Translations under genes and position numbers: made by a program | Assembly (NCBI GenBank): GCA_965207735.1 | Contig: OZ242296.1 | Location: 3,872,001-3,936,000 of the forward strand | DNA from: Candidatus Versatilivorator sp. | GTDB lineage: Bacteria > Acidobacteriota > Terriglobia > Versatilivoradales > Versatilivoraceae | DNA: 64,000 nucleotides | Direction of reading: 5' to 3' | Shown here: in pieces, positions 14,281-49,041 of the stretch | Layout of the letters: each line of letters begins with the position of its first letter | Position numbering within the stretch: position 1 is the stretch's first letter | The notes under the pieces: generated by a model | Seen by the model: the letters and a program-made list of their open reading frames with translations, nothing else | What the model was told of the DNA's origin: nothing | Database searches by the model: none

Positions 14281-14435
14281 GACAAGCCGTCCCCCCGCCC
14301 TACCGGACGGATCATTCGAGAGTGAAACAATCAGAAATCGACCAATCCTTTCGCGACCTTTGTACCCCGTTGCGGTTAACCTCAACGCCTTAGTGGCCCT
14401 CCGTGGATCACTCCTTTTTCTTTGTTTCTGCGATG
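14281..14435 (+). repeat. IS110-end cassette (type A), solitary copy
   Basis: GACAAG..CGGATCATTCGAGAGTGAAACAATCAGAAATCGA...TTGTTTC, homologous to 45742-45925. Confidence 0.85.
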
Positions 14436-22642: not shown

Positions 22643-23195
22643 TCCCCGGTTCATTCGATGGGGCGGATCATTCGAGGGTGAAACAACGGAGCTTCATGGC
22701 CTATCGGGAACAAGGACCCTGTCCCGTGAATCCGGATTCACGGACTATTGAACATGGATGGACAGGATGCACAGGATAATCAGGACGAGACGATGCCGCA
22801 CAGGGAGCGGATTCGCTCAATGGTCGGGTCCGTCTTCGAGGGGTTCCAGGAGCTTGGGAGCGGGATCTGGAATCCTGGTTGAAAGCGGGGCGATGGTTGA
22901 GCGCAAGGCGGTGGAAACTCTCGTCCAATAATCCTGTATATCCTGTCCATCCATGTCAATAAACCCTCGACTCATGCTTGACTTTGGACCGGATTCCCGC
23001 CACCAGGCGCAGCGTTTGGTTCAGGCAAGCCGGGCCCCCGCCCTAGTGTGCGGATCATACATAGAGTGAAACAATCGGAAATCGATATTCCCTTCGTGAA
23101 CTTGGTATCCCGTCGCGGTTAACTTCAGCGCCTTAGTGGCCCTTCGTGCCCCTTCGTCGATAAATCTTTTTCTTTTGTCGGTTGTTTCAGGTAAG
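22643..23195 (+). repeat. tandem IS110-end cassettes: type B (22643-23029) plus type A (23030-23195)
   Basis: Each begins ..CGGATCAT..GTGAAACAA and ends TTG(T/G)TTCAGG(C/T)AAG. Confidence 0.85.
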
Positions 23196-41085: not shown

Positions 41086-41145
41086 GAGCCTTTTGCAAAA
41101 AATCCGCAAGTAGGGGCGCTGAGCGACGAATCTTGCAAAAGGCTC
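41086..41145. mobile_element. 60-bp mini-MITE with GAGCCTTTTGCAA TIRs
   Basis: Same ends as 28138-28648. Confidence 0.75.
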
Positions 41146-42445
41146 AGAGAGTCCTGGCAGTCCAGGAATCGGGGAGGACGATGGTGTGTTCCCGATCGGG
41201 ACCTGTCGAGATGAAGGAGCATTCCGTCTGGGTGATGTCTGACAAAATTTTCAGATAGTCTCTTGCCTTCACCGGCAACTCGTCGTAGTCCCGCATGCCT
41301 GCCGTCGGACTTTGCCAGCCGGGGACCGACTTGTAGATCGGTTTGACGGCTTCCAGGACCTTGATCTCCGGCGGAAATTCCTTGAGTCGGCAGCCCCGGT
41401 AGTCATATCCCGTACAGACCAGTATCTGTTCGAATTCGTCCAGGACATCCAGCTTGGTGATGACGATGGCCTGCAGGTTGTTCAGGACGGCCGCATAGAA
41501 GGTCGCAACCCCATCGAACCATCCGCAGCGGCGGGGTCGGCCCGTAGAGGCTCCGAATTCGGCTCCCCGTCTTCGGATTTCGTCTCCGATGGTACCGTTG
41601 GCTTCGGTGGGGAAGGGGCCCCCGCCGACTCGGGTGGTGTAGGCCTTGGCAATTCCGATCACTCCCGTAATCCAGGAGGGGGCTACCCCGGATCCCACAC
41701 AAGCCGCCCCGGCAGTGGCATTCGAAGAGGTGACATAGGGGTAGGTTCCGTGGTCGACGTCGAGGAGCGTCCCCTGGGCGCCTTCGAACAACACCCGTTT
41801 GCCGCGCCGGATATGATCGTTCAGGAAAAAGGCCGTATCCACCACGAATTCCTTCAGCCGTTGACCATATTGCAGGTACTCCTCGTAGATCTTCCCGGCA
41901 TCCAGGGGGGGACCTCCATACAGGGATTGAATCAGGCAGTTCTTCTCTCGGGTAAGCTCGAAGATCGTCTCCCTCAGAGTCTCCGCATCGAAGAGATCGA
42001 CCACTCTCAAGCCCCGCCGGCCCGATTTGTCTTCGTAGGCGGGTCCGATCCCCCGGGAGGTGGTCCCGATCTTCTTGGCCCCCCGGGCCTCCTCGGCGGC
42101 CTGCTCGACGGCACGGTGATAGGGCAGGATCAAGTGGGCGCGGTTACTGACGAAGAGGTTTCCCCGGACCTGGATGCCGGCTTGCTCCAGCATGTCGAGC
42201 TCTTCAAAAAAGGCCTTGGGGTCGAGGACGACGCCCGGTCCGATGACGCACAGCCGGCCCCCGTGAAGAATTCCCGAGGGAATCAGGTGCAGGATGAACT
42301 GCTTGCCGTTGATGGTCACGGTGTGACCGGCATTGTGTCCCCCCTGGTACCTGGCGACGATGTCGAATTTCTCGGTCAGCAGGTCGACGATCTTCCCCTT
42401 GCCCTCATCTCCCCACTGGGCGCCGATAATGATGATGTTGGCCAT
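41144..42445 (-). CDS. purA: adenylosuccinate synthetase
   Basis: QWGDEGKG, GGHNAGHT, GIGPAY, TGRPRRCGW. Confidence 0.98.
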   Translation of the reverse strand: MANIIIIGAQWGDEGKGKIVDLLTEKFDIVARYQGGHNAGHTVTINGKQFILHLIPSGILHGGRLCVIGPGVVLDPKAFFEELDMLEQAGIQVRGNLFVSNRAHLILPYHRAVEQAAEEARGAKKIGTTSRGIGPAYEDKSGRRGLRVVDLFDAETLRETIFELTREKNCLIQSLYGGPPLDAGKIYEEYLQYGQRLKEFVVDTAFFLNDHIRRGKRVLFEGAQGTLLDVDHGTYPYVTSSNATAGAACVGSGVAPSWITGVIGIAKAYTTRVGGGPFPTEANGTIGDEIRRRGAEFGASTGRPRRCGWFDGVATFYAAVLNNLQAIVITKLDVLDEFEQILVCTGYDYRGCRLKEFPPEIKVLEAVKPIYKSVPGWQSPTAGMRDYDELPVKARDYLKILSDITQTECSFISTGPDREHTIVLPDSWTARTL

Positions 42446-44998: not shown

Positions 44999-45231
44999 AT
45001 GGTATCTCCGGGCCGAACGGGTGCGATTGGCCAGCTCTTCGAACCCTGACGAGACCGGCCCCGGCGTGCGGGTCATTCCGAGGGGAAACAGCCAGCCGTA
45101 TTCGTTTTGGAAATGAAGACGAACCACGAATGAACGCGAATATACACGAATACGGGTGGAGCTCCTTCAATGACGAGCAGCGCCCGAATGCTTCTGCATT
45201 ATTGTGACGTTGGTGTCACGACGTCATGGGA

Positions 45232-45741
45232 GGAAGCCCACCCGGGAGCGCGGGCGTCCCGCCCGCACAAATCCTGGTATAGCCTCACCCATCTCCTCGA
45301 CCGGGATCGAACGGCAACGGCGCAGGACTCTGCTTCGGCCGGGCCCATGCGATTTCCACCGGCAGGGGGGCGGACTGCCGCATCTCAGGGAAACTGAGCG
45401 GCAACCCAAGGGACAGGATTAATAGGAGCAGAGGCCGCTGCACGGGACGCTGACTGGGAATCGGGGCGTTGGGCACAGCCAAGGCCCGCCACGGGGAAGA
45501 TCAATCGAGAAGGACAATAAATTGAACATGGATGCACAGGATAACCAGGACGGGACGCTACGCACGAAACGCTGACTCCGGCGATGATCGTGTGCGGATT
45601 TGCGGATGTCCAGGAATACAAGCCGGCCGTCTCCGGAAAAAATCCTGCGCATCCTGTGCATCCAGGTGAACCAAAAATCTACCCGTGCTTGACTTGGAAC
45701 CGGTTTCCAGCCACCCGGCGCAGCGGGTTGTTTCAGACAAG
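45232..45741 (+). repeat. mosaic repeat: REP-containing segment + GxxExxY-derived mini element + IS110-type right end
   Basis: GGGAGCGCGGGCGTCCCGCCCGC REP; inverted homolog at 57284-57485 and 59415-59730. Confidence 0.85.
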
Positions 45742-45925
45742 TCCCGCCCCCGCCTTGGTGTGCGGATCATACATAGAGTGAAACAATCGGAAATCGATCA
45801 TCCCTTCGCGACCTTGGTATCCCGTCGCGGCCAACCTCAGCGCCTTAGTGTCCCTTCGTGGTCCTTCGTGCCCCTTCGTGGATAAGTCTTTTTTCTTTTG
45901 TCTATTGTCGGTTGTTTCAGACAAG
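45742..45925 (+). repeat. IS110-end cassette A1 (184 bp)
   Basis: Starts after GACAAG; CGGATCATACATAGAGTGAAACAA ... GTTGTTTCAGACAAG. Confidence 0.9.
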
Positions 45926-47610
45926 TCCCGCCCCCGCCCCCCACGACGGGCGGATCATTCGAGGGTGAAACAACGGATCATTGTGAAAGAATAAGCACCT
46001 GGCGAGACTCCGGCAGCTACGCCCCGTTCCAGCATTGGTGCCCCGTGCCCCAAGACAAGTCTGGGTCCGAGCAGGTCATCATTCATTAGTGAGGCTTCCC
46101 GGGAAGCTCTCCTCAAGGCAAGAATCCGAACGACCACGCCAACTCGGGCCGGAGCCCTCGCCCTGGAGGAGGCCAATCTCATGCAAAAGAGCAGGAAAGT
46201 CAACACGAAGGCGAAGAAGACCCCGAAGAAGAAGCGCAGCCGTTCGACAGCCTTGTCGCGGATCCACCCCGAGGTGGCAGGGATCGACCTGGGGAGTCGG
46301 GAGCACTGGGTGTGCGCTCCGGAGGTGACCCCAGGGAAGCCGAACGTGCGCACCTTCGGCACCACCATGGAGCAGTTGCAGCAACTGGCCGACTGGTTGC
46401 TGGAGCAAGGGGTGGAGTCGGTGGCGATGGAGAGCACCAACGTGTATTGGATTCCCCTCTACGAACTGCTGGAGTCCTGCGGCATCGAGGTCTTGCTGGT
46501 CAACGCCCGGCAGTTGCGCTACGTTCCGGGCCGCAAGACCGACATGCGGGACTGCCAGTGGATCCAGTTGCTGCACAGTTGCGGCTTGCTGCGGGGATCC
46601 TTCCGTCCGCACGAGGCGATCGTCCGGGTTCGGACCCTGCACCGGCAACTGAGCACTCTGGGGGCCGAGAGTACCCGCTTTGTGCAGTGGATGCAGAAGG
46701 CGCTGGATCAGATGAACGTCCAGATCCATCGTGCGGTCACCGATCTGACCGGTCAGACGGGGATGGCGATCGTGCGGGCGATTGTCGACGGCGAACGGGA
46801 CCCGGTCCGTCTGGCGGGTCTGCGGGACCGACGGTGCAAGAAGTCCAGCCGGGAGTTTGCCGAGCACCTCAGAGGCAACTGGCGAGAAGAGCATCTGTTC
46901 AACCTCAAGTCGGCGCTGAAGCTCTACGACATGACTCAACGCGAGATTGCGGCCTATGAGGCCCGCATCCTGGAGGAAATCCAGGCGCTGCAACCGGTGG
47001 AGCGCCACGACCAGCCCGTGCCGAAGCATCCCAATGCGATCAAGGAAAAGGCGATTCGCCGCCGCGGTGGGCACCACCTGCGCACCGAACTGTGGCGCTT
47101 TGCCGGAGTCGATCTGACGCGTATCGACGGCATCGGCACCGAAGCGGCCCTGACCCTGCTGACTGAGGCCGGCCTCGACCTGACGGCCTTCCCCTCGGAG
47201 AAGCACTTTGTATCCTGGCTGCGCCTGGCTCCAAAAACGGCCGTCTCCGCAGGCAAGCCGCTCCACTACAAGAAGGCCAACAGCACCGGGTCTACTCGCG
47301 CCGCCGCCGTCCTGCGCATGGCAGCCGTCTCTCTGAAGCACTCCAAGACCGCTCTGGGGGCCGCCTTCCGTCGCAAGGCCCGCCACAAGGGATGGAGTGT
47401 CGCCGTCTTCTCCATGGCCCGCCGGCTGGCCGTTCTCGTCTACCGCATGCTGCGCTACGGCCAGGACTACATCGACATCGGGGAAGCGTGCTACGAGGAC
47501 CGGTTCCGGCGACGACGCCTCGCGGGCCTCAAAGATGCCGCTAAGTCTCTTGGTTTCAACCTGGTTCCACAAATCGCAGCCGCTTGAACTGCGGGGTTGT
47601 TTCAGGCAAG
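45926..47610 (+). mobile_element. IS110-family element with a long left non-coding end
   Basis: Subterminal IRs TGAAACAAC (45966-45974) and GTTGTTTCA (47596-47604); ends inferred from the shared cassette junctions. Confidence 0.85.
46181..47587 (+). CDS. IS110-family DEDD recombinase/transposase
   Basis: GIDLG, AMESTNVYW, RKTDMRDC, FPSEKHFVSWLRLAP..SAG. Confidence 0.96.
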   Translation: MQKSRKVNTKAKKTPKKKRSRSTALSRIHPEVAGIDLGSREHWVCAPEVTPGKPNVRTFGTTMEQLQQLADWLLEQGVESVAMESTNVYWIPLYELLESCGIEVLLVNARQLRYVPGRKTDMRDCQWIQLLHSCGLLRGSFRPHEAIVRVRTLHRQLSTLGAESTRFVQWMQKALDQMNVQIHRAVTDLTGQTGMAIVRAIVDGERDPVRLAGLRDRRCKKSSREFAEHLRGNWREEHLFNLKSALKLYDMTQREIAAYEARILEEIQALQPVERHDQPVPKHPNAIKEKAIRRRGGHHLRTELWRFAGVDLTRIDGIGTEAALTLLTEAGLDLTAFPSEKHFVSWLRLAPKTAVSAGKPLHYKKANSTGSTRAAAVLRMAAVSLKHSKTALGAAFRRKARHKGWSVAVFSMARRLAVLVYRMLRYGQDYIDIGEACYEDRFRRRRLAGLKDAAKSLGFNLVPQIAAA

Positions 47611-47976
47611 CGGGGCCCCTTCCCTGTCGGGCAGATCATCCGAGGGTGAAACAATCAGAAATCGACAATCCTTTCGCGACCTTGGTATCCCGTCGCGGCC
47701 AACCTCAGCGCCTTAGTGTCCCTTCGTCGTTCTTCGTGCCCCTTCGTGGATAAGTCTTTTTTCTTTTGTCTTTTTTCGGTTGTTTCAGACAAGCCGAACC
47801 CCCACCCTGGTGTGCGGATCATACATAGAGTGAAACAATCGGAAATCGACCATCCCTTCGCGACCTGGGCATCCCGTCGCGGTTAACCTCAACGCCTTAG
47901 TGGCCCTTCGTCGTCCTTCGTGTCCCTTCGTGGATAGCTCTTTTTCTTTTGTCTTTTTTCGTTTGTTTCAGCCAAG
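47611..47976 (+). repeat. IS110-end cassettes A2 (47611-47793) and A3 (47794-47976), 183 bp each
   Basis: Head-to-tail copies with the same ends as the IS110. Confidence 0.9.
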
Positions 47977-48090
47977 AAAGGGGGCGGGGCGTCTTTGCAT
48001 CCGAACCCCTGCAGGTTATATTACACCTCCCGGTTCAGGGGTCGGACGGTAGTCATTCCATAGGCAGGCTCAAAAACAACGAGGTTAGAG

Positions 48091-49041
48091 GTGTCAGATC
48101 GAGTCGAAAAACTTGTGATTGTGGGTTCGGGTCCCGCGGGGCATACGGCCGCCATCTATTCCGCGCGGGCCGATCTCTCCCCCTTGATGTATGAGGGATT
48201 CATGGCAGGCGGCGTGGCGGCCGGAGGTCAGTTGACCACCACCAACGATGTCGAAAACTATCCGGGCTTCCCCGAGGGTATTAACGGGCCGGAAATGATG
48301 GACCTGTTCCGCCAACAGTCGCTGCGTTTCGGCACCCGTATTCTTACGGAGACGGTGGAGAAGGTGGATCTGGGCCGCCGTCCCTTCCGGGTGATGACTT
48401 CCAGCGGGGAAACCTTGACCGAGACCCTGATTGTGGCCACCGGCGCCACGGCCCGGCGCCTGGGCATCCCCGGAGAGGAACACTACTGGCAGCAGGGCAT
48501 TTCCGCCTGCGCCGTATGTGACGGCGCCCTCCCCATATACCGCAACAAGGTGTTGATGGTCATCGGTGGAGGGGATACCGCGGTAGAGGAGGCCACCCAT
48601 CTGACCAAGTTCGGGACCGAGGTCGTCGTGGTTCATCGCAGGGACACCTTGAGAGCCTCCAAGATCATGCAGCAGCGTCTGCTTTCCCATCCCAAGATCC
48701 GGATGCAATGGAGTGCGGTGGCGGAAGAGGCCCTGGGCGACGATGCGCTCAAGAGCGTTCGCATTCGCAACGTCAAGTCGAATGAAACCAATGTGATAGA
48801 GGCCGAGGGACTCTTTTACGCCATCGGGCACGTTCCCAACACGAGCTTCCTGGACGGACAGCTCGAACTGGACGACACCGGCTACATCGTGACCACCCCG
48901 GGGACCACCCGAACCTCGGTCGAGGGTGTATTTGCCGCCGGCGACGTCCAGGACAAGGTGTGGCGCCAGGCTGTCACAGCGGCCGGAACGGGATGCATGG
49001 CCGCGTTGGAGGCCGAGCGCTTTCTGGTGGAGCAGGCCTGA
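48091..49041 (+). CDS. trxB: thioredoxin reductase
   Basis: GSGPAG, CAVCDG, GGGDTA, FAAGDV. Confidence 0.97.

What the first reader, a model, noticed from the sequence alone, without database searches (positions are those of the whole stretch)
45727..47976. IS110 recombinase embedded in a head-to-tail array of non-coding cassettes that share its ends
Seen: the order is B - A1 (184 bp) - IS110 (1685 bp) - A2 (183) - A3 (183). Every unit ends TTGTTTCA-G(A/G/C)CAAG. A1, the IS110, A2 and A3 each begin with ~21-25 variable C-rich bases, then C(G/A)GATCAT..GTGAAACAA. The transposase-bearing unit therefore has the same ends as the short cassettes. The same cassettes occur at 14287, 22643+23030 (tandem B+A), 32382 and 57217 (inverted), always intergenic. 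Solitary copies are preceded by a right-end-like motif (GTTCCTGACAAG, CTCAGGCCAAG). Known: IS110 enzymes recombine circular donors into RNA-specified targets without TSDs. Inference: each right end recreates a target, so one recombinase builds integron-like arrays of non-autonomous cassettes with different cargo. This is the best candidate for an undescribed system here.
Basis: partly seen in the sequence, partly recalled or inferred. Interest (0 to 1): 0.88.

Follow-up and report, generated by a model that had tools for sequence, protein, structure and literature searches.

The report
IS110 element and its mini-cassette arrays
An IS110-type jumping gene, whose guide RNA is aimed at its own kind of right end, sits in a head-to-tail row of short gene-less units that carry the same two ends and that it likely moves, a large-scale variant of an arrangement described in Pseudomonas in 2025.

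Summary
Window 45484-47976 reads B, A1, a 1685-bp IS110 unit, A2, A3, all head to tail. Every unit ends in TTGTTTCAG-N-CAAG and starts with a C-rich stretch, GGATCAT-N-C and GTGAAACAA.

The genome holds 226 complete units of this build: 147 of the A family, 16-18 minimal units of about 60 nt, and 10 IS copies. They form arrays of up to six units.

I found the bridge RNA in the IS leader by covariation across 13 lineages. Its target guide (AAGACAAG) nearly equals its donor guide (AAGGCAAG), and both match the shared right end plus an AG core. Each insertion would therefore recreate a target.

Short units have moved as discrete units. One A unit is precisely absent from a sister species. Identical A and 60-nt units lie at unrelated loci. 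Neighbours in arrays are no more alike than random pairs.

That this recombinase moves them is inferred, not shown. One relative has 240 left ends and no recombinase homologue.

The "different cargo" is wrong. The larger units are A copies invaded by an IS5-type IS or a group II intron.

The system is not undescribed. ISPpu9/MITEPpu9 and two 2026 preprints cover the principle. I class it as a new variant of a known kind. Earlier notes of this scan saw these repeat mosaics but not the IS110 link.

The parts
45484..45741 (+). Unit B: non-coding unit with a degenerate left end (GAAGATCAATCGAGAAGGACAA), preceded by CAGCCAAG, and a canonical right end TTGTTTCAGACAAG (45728-45741). It contains a 25-nt inverted repeat.
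   Evidence: about 98 BLAST hits in the genome
45742..45925 (+). A1: 184-nt non-coding unit of the A family, with both shared ends
45926..45973 (+). Left end of the IS110 unit. It holds 5 nt TCCCG, a C-run, the inverted repeat CCGCCC/GGGCGG (45934-45953), the box ATCATTCG (45954-45961) and the subterminal inverted repeat GTGAAACAA (45965-45973).
   Evidence: identical in 10 of 10 copies apart from one G insertion in a subfamily; the box covaries with the bridge RNA
46004..46156 (+). Predicted bridge RNA core. It is closed by the stem CUCCGGC/GCCGGAG. It holds the target guide AAGACAAG (46052-46059), the box AUCAUUCA on the 5' side of the donor loop (46078-46085) and the donor guide AAGGCAAG (46115-46122).
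   Evidence: alignments; RNAalifold gave 39 pairs, 8 with compensatory changes; guide tests
46181..47587 (+). Recombinase gene, 468 aa, with DEDD_Tnp_IS110 and Transposase_20 domains
47597..47610 (+). Right end of the IS110 unit, TTGTTTCAGGCAAG, ending in the AG core
47611..47793 (+). A2: 183-nt non-coding unit
47794..47976 (+). A3: 183-nt non-coding unit. It is the only unit of the array with an orthologue at the same site in G002, sharing the unusual end ..CAGCCAAG.
22643..23029 (+). 387-nt unit (B/F type) with both ends. Its right end was the target of the next unit.
23030..23195 (+). A unit (166 nt) that is precisely absent from G002. The empty site there reads ..TTTGGTTCAGGCAAG|GCGGTTACG.
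14287..14360 (+). Left end of a solitary A-type unit, preceded by GTTCCTGACAAG. Only the start of the unit is given; no canonical right end was found with my motifs.

Best explanation
This is an IS110-family insertion sequence whose 5' leader encodes a bridge RNA with a target guide that matches the family's own right end, and the short gene-less units around it carry the same two ends and are likely moved by its recombinase and RNA supplied in trans. Shown: the unit boundaries, the AG core on both sides, the guide-to-DNA matches and their covariation, one precise gain or loss of a short unit, and identical short units at unrelated loci. Inferred: a unit is excised as a circle in which the right end, AG and the left end are joined. 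The donor loop of the RNA would read the right end (AGRCA+AG) and a box 28-35 nt inside the left end (ATCATTC). The target loop would read any AGRCA+AG. Strand exchange at AG would place the unit directly after an existing right end, or after a look-alike in unique DNA. The inserted unit brings a new right end, so the target is regenerated and head-to-tail arrays would grow. Units without recombinase or RNA (A, B/F, 60-nt minimal units) would ride on the 10 IS copies, as MITEPpu9 does on ISPpu9.
For: (1) Boundaries. 10 of 10 IS copies follow ..TTGTTTCA(G/A)(A/G)C(A/G)AG and end in TTGTTTCAG(G/A)CAAG. Six have unique DNA on the right, one a truncated left-end-like stretch and three a further unit, so both ends belong to the IS. 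The copies read in G002, G004, G005, G008 and G013 show the same.

(2) Bridge RNA. The 8-mer before UGGGUCCG changes with the left flank across lineages. It is AAGACAAG or AAGGCAAG where insertions follow CAGRCAAG. It is AAGGUCAG in G008, where 5 of 5 copies read follow GGT(C/T)AG. It is AAGGUAAG, AGCCCUAG, ACCGUAAG, AGGGCUAG, AAGGCUAG, AGGGCAAG and AGGGUCAG in distant relatives, each with a matching flank. The exact 7-mer is found at the expected place in 8 of 13 cognate cases against 4 of 150 non-cognate pairs. The donor-guide 7-mer is found at the right end in 11 of 13 against 18 of 148.

(3) Distal donor box. The 5' side of the donor loop equals a box inside the left end, in the same sense, at 7 or more of 8 positions in 12 of 13 lineages. 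Five different box sequences are involved. Among non-cognate pairs, 8 of 64 reach 7 of 8 and 0 of 64 reach 8 of 8.

(4) Structure. RNAalifold predicts 39 pairs, 8 of them with compensatory changes.

(5) Mobility of short units. An A unit is exactly absent from G002 within flanks that align almost without differences. Of 12 pairs of short units with at least 98.5% identity, 10 have unrelated flanks on both sides. These include two 100% identical A pairs and four 100% identical 60-nt units. Adjacent A-A pairs are 87.0% identical against 86.6% for all pairs, and the neighbour is the closest relative in 3 of 37.

(6) Target choice. 93 of 100 solitary units have AG at the junction. Of 61 distinct left flanks, 23 match at least 4 of 5 positions of AGRCA, against 2.9% of random AG sites.

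(7) These 10 genes are the only IS110-family genes found in the genome.

(8) Precedent. ISPpu9 has an AG core, a palindrome in its left box, a tandem MITE-like unit and circles of that unit alone (PMC12288879, passages read). An LE-cargo-RE construct was mobilised in trans by ISPpu10 (10.64898/2026.03.19.712850, section 6 read).
Against: No experiment or read shows a circle, or any dependence on the enzyme. The public runs are kept as short-read contigs that break at the repeats.

G009 is a complete genome with 240 left-end motifs and no homologue of the recombinase at E <= 1e-5. G011 has 64 motifs and none. The units therefore persist, and may spread, without this IS.

Most A copies are older than the IS copies. 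Their nearest-neighbour identity has a median of 94.3%, against at least 99.5% for the IS.

Only 64 of 226 units carry the exact box ATCATTC; 102 have ATCATAC and 31 ATCATCC.

I found no guide for the right half of the target, and the right flanks are poorly conserved.

The first 5 nt of the IS differ between near-identical copies in G002 and G005. Simple crossover at AG does not explain this.

The G+C-rich inverted repeat in the left end folds no better than shuffles in the 5 correctly anchored lineages scored (14 to 91 of 200 shuffles fold as well).

The leader as a whole folds no better than shuffles (z = +1.76).
Confidence: 0.7

Rival explanations
1. The short units are host REP-like repeats that spread or persist by means unrelated to this IS. 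The IS110 merely targets their right end, and its own ends resemble them because it arose from one, or picked one up.
For: G009 has 240 left-end motifs and G011 has 64, and neither has a recombinase homologue. A copies are mostly older than the IS copies. IS110-family elements that target REP sequences are well known (IS621, ISPpu9, ISPpu10; passages read).
Against: The IS carries the complete end module in all copies, including 6 with unique DNA on the right. Both donor-reading parts of its RNA match the ends of the short units. Identical short units lie at unrelated loci in the genome that has 10 near-identical IS copies. The left flanks of solitary units resemble the target guide.
Confidence: 0.17
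2. The arrays arise by local tandem duplication, slippage or unequal homologous recombination between repeats, not by site-specific insertion.
For: One difference between G000 and G002 has its breakpoints inside the C-run of two adjacent left ends, as expected for recombination between direct repeats. A2 and A3 are both 183 nt long.
Against: Adjacent units are no more alike than random pairs (87.0% against 86.6%), and the neighbour is the closest relative in 3 of 37. A1 is 77% identical to A2 and 89% to A3. Arrays mix unit types, for example 182, 60, 182, 492 and 190 nt.
Confidence: 0.05
3. A single-strand (HUH/Y1, RAYT-type) transposase moves the units. This would account for insertion 3' of a short word (..AAG), a right end that ends in the same word, and a hairpin near the left end.
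For: The pattern is formally like IS200/IS605 (recalled, not tested). The genome has one Y1_Tnp match (29.9 bits).
Against: That gene is flanked by a different palindromic repeat (CCCGGGAGCGCGGGCGTC-N-CGCCCGC). None of the 226 complete units lies within 15 kb of it. The IS110 guides explain the same pattern.
Confidence: 0.04

Closest known systems
ISPpu9 and MITEPpu9 of Pseudomonas putida KT2440 (Pares-Guillen et al. 2025, PMC12288879; abstract and passages read)
   Same: Both are IS110-group elements with an invariant AG at both ends. Both have a G+C-rich palindrome in the left-end box. Both have a non-coding unit flanked by near-copies of the IS ends, sitting in tandem with the IS and also alone. 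For ISPpu9, circles of the small unit alone were detected and trans-mobilisation was proposed.
   Different: MITEPpu9 has 8 copies and carries an sRNA gene. Here there are 226 complete units of several families, arrays of up to 6, and zero-cargo units of 60 nt. ISPpu9 inserts into REP sequences that differ from its own end. Here the target guide equals the donor guide, so the element's own right end is the target. Relatedness of the two recombinases was not tested.
IS621 bridge RNA system (Durrant et al. 2024, PMC11208160; Hiraizumi et al. 2024, PMC11208158; passages read)
   Same: Both have a DEDD recombinase and a leader RNA with two internal loops. In both, guides of 7-9 nt have the sense of the left target and of the right IS end and include a 2-nt core. 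Neither makes a target-site duplication. Both have a long left and a short right non-coding end.
   Different: The core is AG here, not CT. In the predicted fold both left guides lie on the 3' side of their loops, whereas in IS621 they lie on the 5' side. The second donor contact has the same sense as the DNA and lies 28-35 nt inside the left end, not antisense next to the core. No right-target guide was found. The subterminal inverted repeats are 8-9 nt, which is IS1111-like. phmmer found no PDB relative.
Expanded IS110 loci (Hu et al. 2026 preprint, 10.64898/2026.08.14.744561; abstract and section 8 read)
   Same: [quoted passage not shown] In both, unit boundaries keep matches to the donor end.
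   Different: [quoted passage not shown] Here the units keep both ends, the target is regenerated, and units are dispersed at more than 100 loci without an adjacent IS.
ISPpu10 'dual-match' targeting and trans capture (Na et al. 2026 preprint, 10.64898/2026.03.19.712850; abstract and section 6 read)
   Same: An LE-cargo-RE unit without recombinase is inserted in trans. A G+C-rich stem-loop beside the recombination site acts as an added determinant.
   Different: ISPpu10 has a CT core and IS621-type guide logic, and its stem-loop is in the target. Here the inverted repeat is in the donor left end, and in next-unit targets, and its role is untested.
Integrons
   Same: Serial site-specific insertion produces head-to-tail cassette arrays, because a recombination site is present at every cassette boundary.
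   Different: Here there is no tyrosine integrase, no attI platform with a promoter and no gene cassettes. Arrays are dispersed and specificity is RNA-guided.
REP/REPIN elements with RAYT
   Same: Both are abundant short intergenic repeats with hairpin potential.
   Different: The genome's RAYT-like gene is flanked by a different repeat. The units here are directional, carry IS110 ends and abut at an AG core.

Membership tests
IS110 family (DEDD recombinase with bridge RNA) | Recombinase with DEDD_Tnp_IS110 (RuvC-like) and Transposase_20 domains | tested here: met
   PF01548 2.7e-22 at residues 33-178; PF02371 8.8e-12 at residues 312-389
IS110 family (DEDD recombinase with bridge RNA) | Catalytic D, E, D, D and Ser residues (IS621 D11, E60, D102, D105, S241; from the passage) | tested here: inconclusive
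   By eye in the translation: GID36LG, AME84ST, KTD121MRD124 and VSAGK. No structural or profile alignment to IS621 was made, and phmmer against the PDB found nothing.
IS110 family (DEDD recombinase with bridge RNA) | Non-coding RNA whose guides covary with the target and with the element's own ends | tested here: met
   Target guide found in 8 of 13 cognate cases against 4 of 150 non-cognate; donor guide in 11 of 13 against 18 of 148; alignments; fold. Rfam has no matching family.
IS110 family (DEDD recombinase with bridge RNA) | Site-specific insertion without target duplication; the same core dinucleotide on both sides | tested here: met
   AG precedes the left end and ends the right end in all copies read. 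The empty site in G002 confirms this.
IS110 family (DEDD recombinase with bridge RNA) | Circular intermediate with joined ends | not testable with these tools
   Only contigs of short-read runs were available. Contigs of 3 studies join a right end to a left end of the IS type, but tandem units give the same picture.
IS110 group as against IS1111 group | Long left end that holds the RNA and a short right end (IS110 group); subterminal inverted repeats of 7-17 bp (IS1111 group) | tested here: inconclusive
   The left non-coding end is 255 nt and holds the RNA; the right is 23 nt, as in the IS110 group. But GTGAAACAA/TTGTTTCAC forms 8-9 bp subterminal repeats, as in the IS1111 group (definitions from the passage).
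MITE-like non-autonomous derivative (as MITEPpu9) | Shares both ends with an autonomous element and has no transposase | tested here: met
   Logos of 226 units: GGATCAT-N-C and GAAAC in the left end and TTGTTTCAG-N-CAAG in the right end are at least 95% conserved. The units are 60-600 nt long.
MITE-like non-autonomous derivative (as MITEPpu9) | Evidence of movement as a discrete unit | tested here: met
   Precise presence/absence between G000 and G002. Of 12 near-identical pairs, 10 have unrelated flanks.
MITE-like non-autonomous derivative (as MITEPpu9) | Terminal inverted repeats and target-site duplication (classical MITE definition) | tested here: not met
   The inverted repeats are subterminal and there is no duplication beyond the AG core. 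Hence 'MITE-like', not a classical MITE.
MITE-like non-autonomous derivative (as MITEPpu9) | Mobility depends on the partner's enzyme | not testable with these tools
   Co-occurrence is mixed. G000, G002 and G008 have both the IS and the units. G009 and G011 have units only. G001 has neither.
REP/RAYT | The repeat flanks a single-copy Y1 (RAYT) gene | tested here: not met
   The only Y1_Tnp match is flanked by a different palindrome, and none of the 226 complete units lies within 15 kb of it.
Integron | Tyrosine integrase IntI with attI, and gene cassettes with attC | tested here: not met
   The recombinase in the array is of the DEDD IS110 type and the cassettes are non-coding. IntI was not searched for in the genome.

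The most novel reading that the evidence does not exclude
A bridge-RNA recombinase whose target and donor guides have converged on the same word has become a genome-wide, RNA-guided cassette assembler. Every unit boundary is at once a donor junction and a target, so single units or runs of units can be inserted, excised and reshuffled at more than a hundred loci. Its RNA would represent a separate architectural class, with both donor contacts on the same DNA strand on either side of a DNA inverted repeat, and no RNA reading of the right half of the target.
Probability: 0.3. Interest if true: 0.75.

Novelty: new variant of a known kind. Interest (0 to 1): 0.6.

Why it matters
It is a natural case in which a programmable bridge recombinase is aimed at its own end. 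Published work on expanded IS110 loci states that insertion does not regenerate the target (10.64898/2026.08.14.744561, section 8); here it would.

If the inference holds, it explains how one small IS can seed hundreds of gene-less units and multi-unit arrays across a genus of uncultured Acidobacteriota.

It also gives a compact definition of a sufficient donor: the 60-nt units, about 47 nt of left end plus 14 nt of right end.

It points to a bridge-RNA layout with a distal, same-strand donor contact that differs from IS621. That is of interest for the design of donor sites and for annotating orphan repeats as IS110 relics.

Tried and rejected
Rfam found no family in 45300-48100 at E <= 1.

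A single-sequence fold of the leader is no better than shuffles (z +1.76). Structure came only from the comparison of lineages.

The promoter and terminator scan found nothing at the unit junctions.

phmmer of the recombinase against PDB sequences gave 0 hits.

DNA runs X1, X3, X4 and X5 and RNA-library runs X15-X18 are held only as contigs, which break at the repeats. Right-end-to-left-end joints (47619 to 45938 in 3 studies) cannot be told apart from tandem units. RNA-library contigs cover parts of the leader and the gene (for example 45935-46099 in X17), but this does not show transcription.

I looked by eye for a right-target guide, antisense or sense, in the variable 5' side of the target loop against the right flanks of 10 lineages. 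I found no consistent match.

GCGAGACU in the leader, as a right-donor guide of the IS621 kind, matches TCCCGC at 7 of 8 positions. I rejected it because it does not change where the first nucleotides of the left end change.

The idea that the larger units carry cargo was rejected. They are nested insertions.

The inverted repeat in the left end is not energetically better than shuffles. Six lineages were scored before the script stopped, one of them mis-anchored. The second pair of its stem shows some covariation among units: C-G 174, T-A 24, T-G 14, C-A 8.

The pattern fixed the spacer at 5 nt and so missed most left ends. It was replaced.

The scripts failed in part. The regex found 1 of 13 sequences and was redone. 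One search stopped before its third control, which was redone.

The 60-nt and 190-nt indels between G000 and G002 at window 41086 and at G000:2080455 are other repeat families, not these units.
Full report
THE OBSERVATION

Unit B (about 45484-45741) has a degenerate left end. It is followed by A1 (45742-45925), a 1685-bp unit with a 468-aa ORF (45926-47610; ORF 46181-47587), A2 (47611-47793) and A3 (47794-47976), with no spacer between them.

Each unit ends in TTGTTTCAG(A/G/C)CAAG. Each begins with 5 variable nt, a C-run, a short G+C-rich inverted repeat, GGATCAT-N-C, 4-5 nt and GTGAAACAA.

The ORF has the DEDD_Tnp_IS110 and Transposase_20 domains. By eye the translation has the D, E and DxxD pattern at D36, E84, D121 and D124, and a VSAGK serine. 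This was not checked against a structure, and phmmer against the PDB found nothing.

SCALE IN THE GENOME

The window lies in a complete 5.26-Mb genome with 61.9% G+C. The right-end word occurs 202 times exactly and 394 times with up to 2 mismatches. The left-end motif occurs 187 times exactly.

Pairing each left end with the next right end gives 226 complete units, 71 left ends without a right end and 168 right ends without a left end. By length:
- 145 units of 151-200 nt
- 18 units of 70 nt or less
- 23 units of 201-600 nt
- 17 units of 1501-1800 nt
- 14 units above 1800 nt
- 9 others

Clustering gives an A family of 147, a family of 16 minimal units of 60-61 nt, the 10 IS units and smaller families. 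Runs of complete units have lengths 1 (82 runs), 2 (30), 3 (12), 4 (8), 5 (2) and 6 (1).

The larger units are not cargo carriers. The 1.67-kb units are A copies with an IS5-type IS (DDE_Tnp_1 and DUF772) inserted in either orientation in the T-rich part of A. The 2.16-kb units are A copies with a group II intron (RVT_1 and GIIM).

BOUNDARIES OF THE IS

The genome has 10 full copies, 97.2-100% identical to the one in the window.
- All 10 begin TCCCGCCCCCGCC directly after ..TTGTTTCA(G/A)(A/G)C(A/G)AG.
- All 10 end in TTGTTTCAGGCAAG (8 copies) or ..GACAAG (2 copies).
- On the left is an A unit (6, one of them carrying a nested group II intron), an A unit carrying the nested IS (3), or one other unit.
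- On the right is another unit (3), a truncated left-end-like stretch (1), or unique DNA (6).

The end module therefore travels with the IS.

The same IS occurs in five other species of the genus at 82-98% identity, with the same boundaries. Tandem IS-IS copies occur in G013 and in a distant relative, L074. Record titles of related loci name MAGs of Terriglobia and 'Candidatus Versatilivorator'.

THE BRIDGE RNA

Aligning the leaders of the genus lineages with those of relatives at 59-88% protein identity from other Acidobacteriota and other phyla shows a conserved scaffold with a few hypervariable words.

Target guide. The 8-mer before UGGGUCCG follows the left flank of each lineage:
- AAGACAAG or AAGGCAAG where insertions follow CAGRCAAG
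- AAGGUCAG in G008, where 5 of 5 copies read follow GGT(C/T)AG inside arrays of a 7-nt word
- other words in distant relatives, each matching its own left flank

Donor guide. The 8-mer after CUCCYC follows each lineage's own right end.

Tests. The exact 7-mer is found at the expected place in 8 of 13 (target guide) and 11 of 13 (donor guide) cognate cases, against 4 of 150 and 18 of 148 non-cognate pairs. The misses are one-base differences, one indel, one extraction error of my own (L068) and one real mismatch (the right end of L069).

Both guides end in AG, and AG flanks every copy on both sides. AG is therefore the core, as in ISPpu9 (passages of PMC12288879).

Fold. RNAalifold on 13 sequences predicts a closing stem (CUCCGGC/GCCGGAG), a second long-range stem (CCGAG/CUCGG) and two internal loops. 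It gives 39 pairs, 8 with compensatory changes.

Differences from IS621 (passages):
- Both left guides lie on the 3' side of their loops.
- The 5' side of the donor loop (AUCAUUCA) has the same sense as a box 28-35 nt inside the left end (ATCATTCG). It matches at 7 or more of 8 positions in 12 of 13 lineages, with five different box sequences. Of 64 non-cognate pairs, 8 reach 7 of 8 and none reaches 8 of 8. Both donor contacts would then lie on the bottom strand, on either side of the inverted repeat.
- I found no guide for the right half of the target.

In this lineage the target guide and the donor guide differ at one position, which is also the A/G position that varies in the right ends. 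The right junction of every inserted unit is therefore again a target.

ARE THE SHORT UNITS MOBILE?

1. Presence/absence. At window 23030-23195 an A unit is present in G000 and exactly absent from G002, within flanks that align almost without differences. The empty site reads ..TTTGGTTCAGGCAAG|GCGGTTACG and the filled site ..GGCAAG|CCGGGCC...TTGTTTCAGGTAAG|GCGGTTACG.

2. Identical copies. Of 12 pairs of equal-length short units with at least 98.5% identity, 10 have unrelated flanks on both sides. These include two 100% identical A pairs and four 100% identical 60-nt units. One pair lies in a segmental duplication and one shares its left flank.

3. Arrays are not local duplications. The 40 adjacent A-A pairs have a median identity of 87.0%, against 86.6% for all pairs. 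The neighbour is the closest relative in 3 of 37, and 3 pairs were not alignable.

4. Target choice. Of 100 units not preceded by a canonical right end, 93 have AG at the junction. After collapsing repeated flanks to 61, 23 match at least 4 of 5 positions of AGRCA before the AG, against 2.9% of 20,000 random AG sites. Some flanks end in GGTTAG or GATTAG inside 7-nt-word arrays, the target class of the G008 lineage.

5. The main locus. The array lies in a gap that has no unit in G009. In G002 only the orthologue of A3 is present, together with other repeats.

In total I compared six unit loci between G000 and G002:
- one clean presence/absence (23030)
- one shared (32382)
- one array of different content (45484-47976)
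- one shared A unit with an extra minimal unit upstream in G002, whose breakpoints lie inside the C-run of two left ends (G000:2069601)
- one complex (57217)
- one without synteny (14287)

IS THE IS110 THE MOVER?

This step is inferred. In favour:
- These 10 genes are the only DEDD_Tnp_IS110 matches in the genome.
- A 19-nt scaffold anchor specific to the bridge RNA occurs only in the 10 IS copies, so I found no orphan RNA genes.
- The best-conserved parts of the short units are exactly the words that the RNA matches.
- The one RAYT-like gene is tied to another repeat.
- In Pseudomonas, circles of a MITE-like unit beside ISPpu9 were detected, and an LE-cargo-RE construct was moved in trans by ISPpu10.

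Against:
- G009 has 240 left-end motifs and G011 has 64 without any homologue of the recombinase. G001 has neither motifs nor homologue. G002 has 181 motifs with 4 IS copies, and G008 has 47 with 6.
- Most A copies are older than the IS copies.
- Only 64 of 226 units carry the exact box ATCATTC.

This is what one expects of MITE-like relics that outlive their partner. It also leaves room for the rival view that the units are independent repeats.

LOOSE ENDS

The first 5 nt after the core differ between near-identical IS copies in G002 (TCCCG in two copies, CGACG, CCGGG) and in G005. The G000/G002 difference, where an upstream unit's first nucleotides are fused to the next unit's body, suggests exchange between adjacent left ends as one route. 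This is inference.

Fourteen of 210 right ends are followed by a second RCAAG; my own estimate is about 0.4 expected by chance. This fits recombination at the other AG of TTTC-AG-RCA-AG, as insertion or as off-register excision. This too is inference.

The inverted repeat in the left end is placed as in the ISPpu9 A box, but it folds no better than shuffled sequence.

Public runs gave only contigs and decide nothing.

WHAT IS KNOWN

Searches of the paper library found the IS621 papers, ISPpu9/MITEPpu9 (2025) and three 2026 preprints, on half-match recombination, expanded IS110 loci and the ISPpu10 stem-loop. Nothing was found on this genus. Supplements of the preprints were not seen and may hold similar cases.

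The principle is therefore in print: IS110 units with non-coding hitch-hikers that share their ends, tandem growth, and action in trans. I did not find the following described in those texts:
- a target guide that equals the donor guide, so that the target is regenerated
- expansion to hundreds of units and zero-cargo 60-nt units
- the same-sense distal donor contact

VERDICT

It is a new variant of a known kind, with interest 0.6.

Noticed in passing
window 41086-41146: A 60-nt miniature element with inverted ends GAGCCTTTTGCAAAA.../...TTTTGCAAAAGGCTC is present in G000 and absent from G002. The ends are those of the IS5-type IS (391-aa DDE_Tnp_1/DUF772 ORF) found nested in A units.
   Followed up: partly
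G000:C1:3821730-3823402 (L099) and six similar units: An IS5-type IS is inserted in either orientation at the same T-rich spot (CTTTTG) of A units. There are 7 such copies in two subfamilies. The A unit is therefore itself a preferred target of another IS.
   Followed up: partly
G000:C1:1237084-1239242 (L100) and five similar units: A group II intron (452-aa RVT_1 + GIIM ORF, copies 99% identical) is nested in A units.
   Followed up: partly
window about 45230-45270; G000:C1:2226500-2228150: A separate palindromic repeat, CCCGGGAGCGCGGGCGTC-N-CGCCCGC, flanks the genome's only Y1_Tnp (RAYT-like) gene in several tandem copies. This is a classical REP/RAYT arrangement. One copy lies just upstream of the array in the window.
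   Followed up: partly
L026-L030 (G008): The 83%-identical lineage of the same IS has target guide AAGGUCAG. It sits in arrays of a 7-nt word (..GTGATCAGTGGTCAG..). This is a natural retargeting event within one genus. Its left-end box and the matching RNA box have also changed (ATCATACA / AGCAUACA).
   Followed up: partly
genome-wide; e.g. G000:C1:62821, 344891, 466511, 758920, 1615675: In 14 of 210 cases the right end is followed by a second copy of its last five letters (..CAGACAAG ACAAG..). This is far more than chance gives and may be a scar of recombination at the other AG.
   Followed up: partly
window 46055: Contigs of 4 of 4 DNA runs from different studies carry G instead of A at the variable position of the target guide (AAGACAAG / AAGGCAAG). 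The same A/G difference separates the IS subfamilies in this genome.
   Followed up: no
L020 (G013) and L074: Whole IS110 units stand head to tail, with right end, AG and left end joined, in G013 and in a distant Acidobacteriota relative whose target and donor guides also nearly coincide (AGGGUCAG / ACGGUCAG).
   Followed up: partly
G000:C1:2080455-2080639 (L095:18455-18639): A 190-nt insertion relative to G002 belongs to yet another repeat family, with tandem ..CTCGGGGCGCCG..CCCCCCTCCGGATCGACGGCGGGC.. modules. It is unrelated to the IS110 units.
   Followed up: no
G009:C1:923672-926533: At least six tandem copies, with a period of about 494 nt, of a B-like unit occur in a genome that has no homologue of the recombinase.
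   Followed up: no
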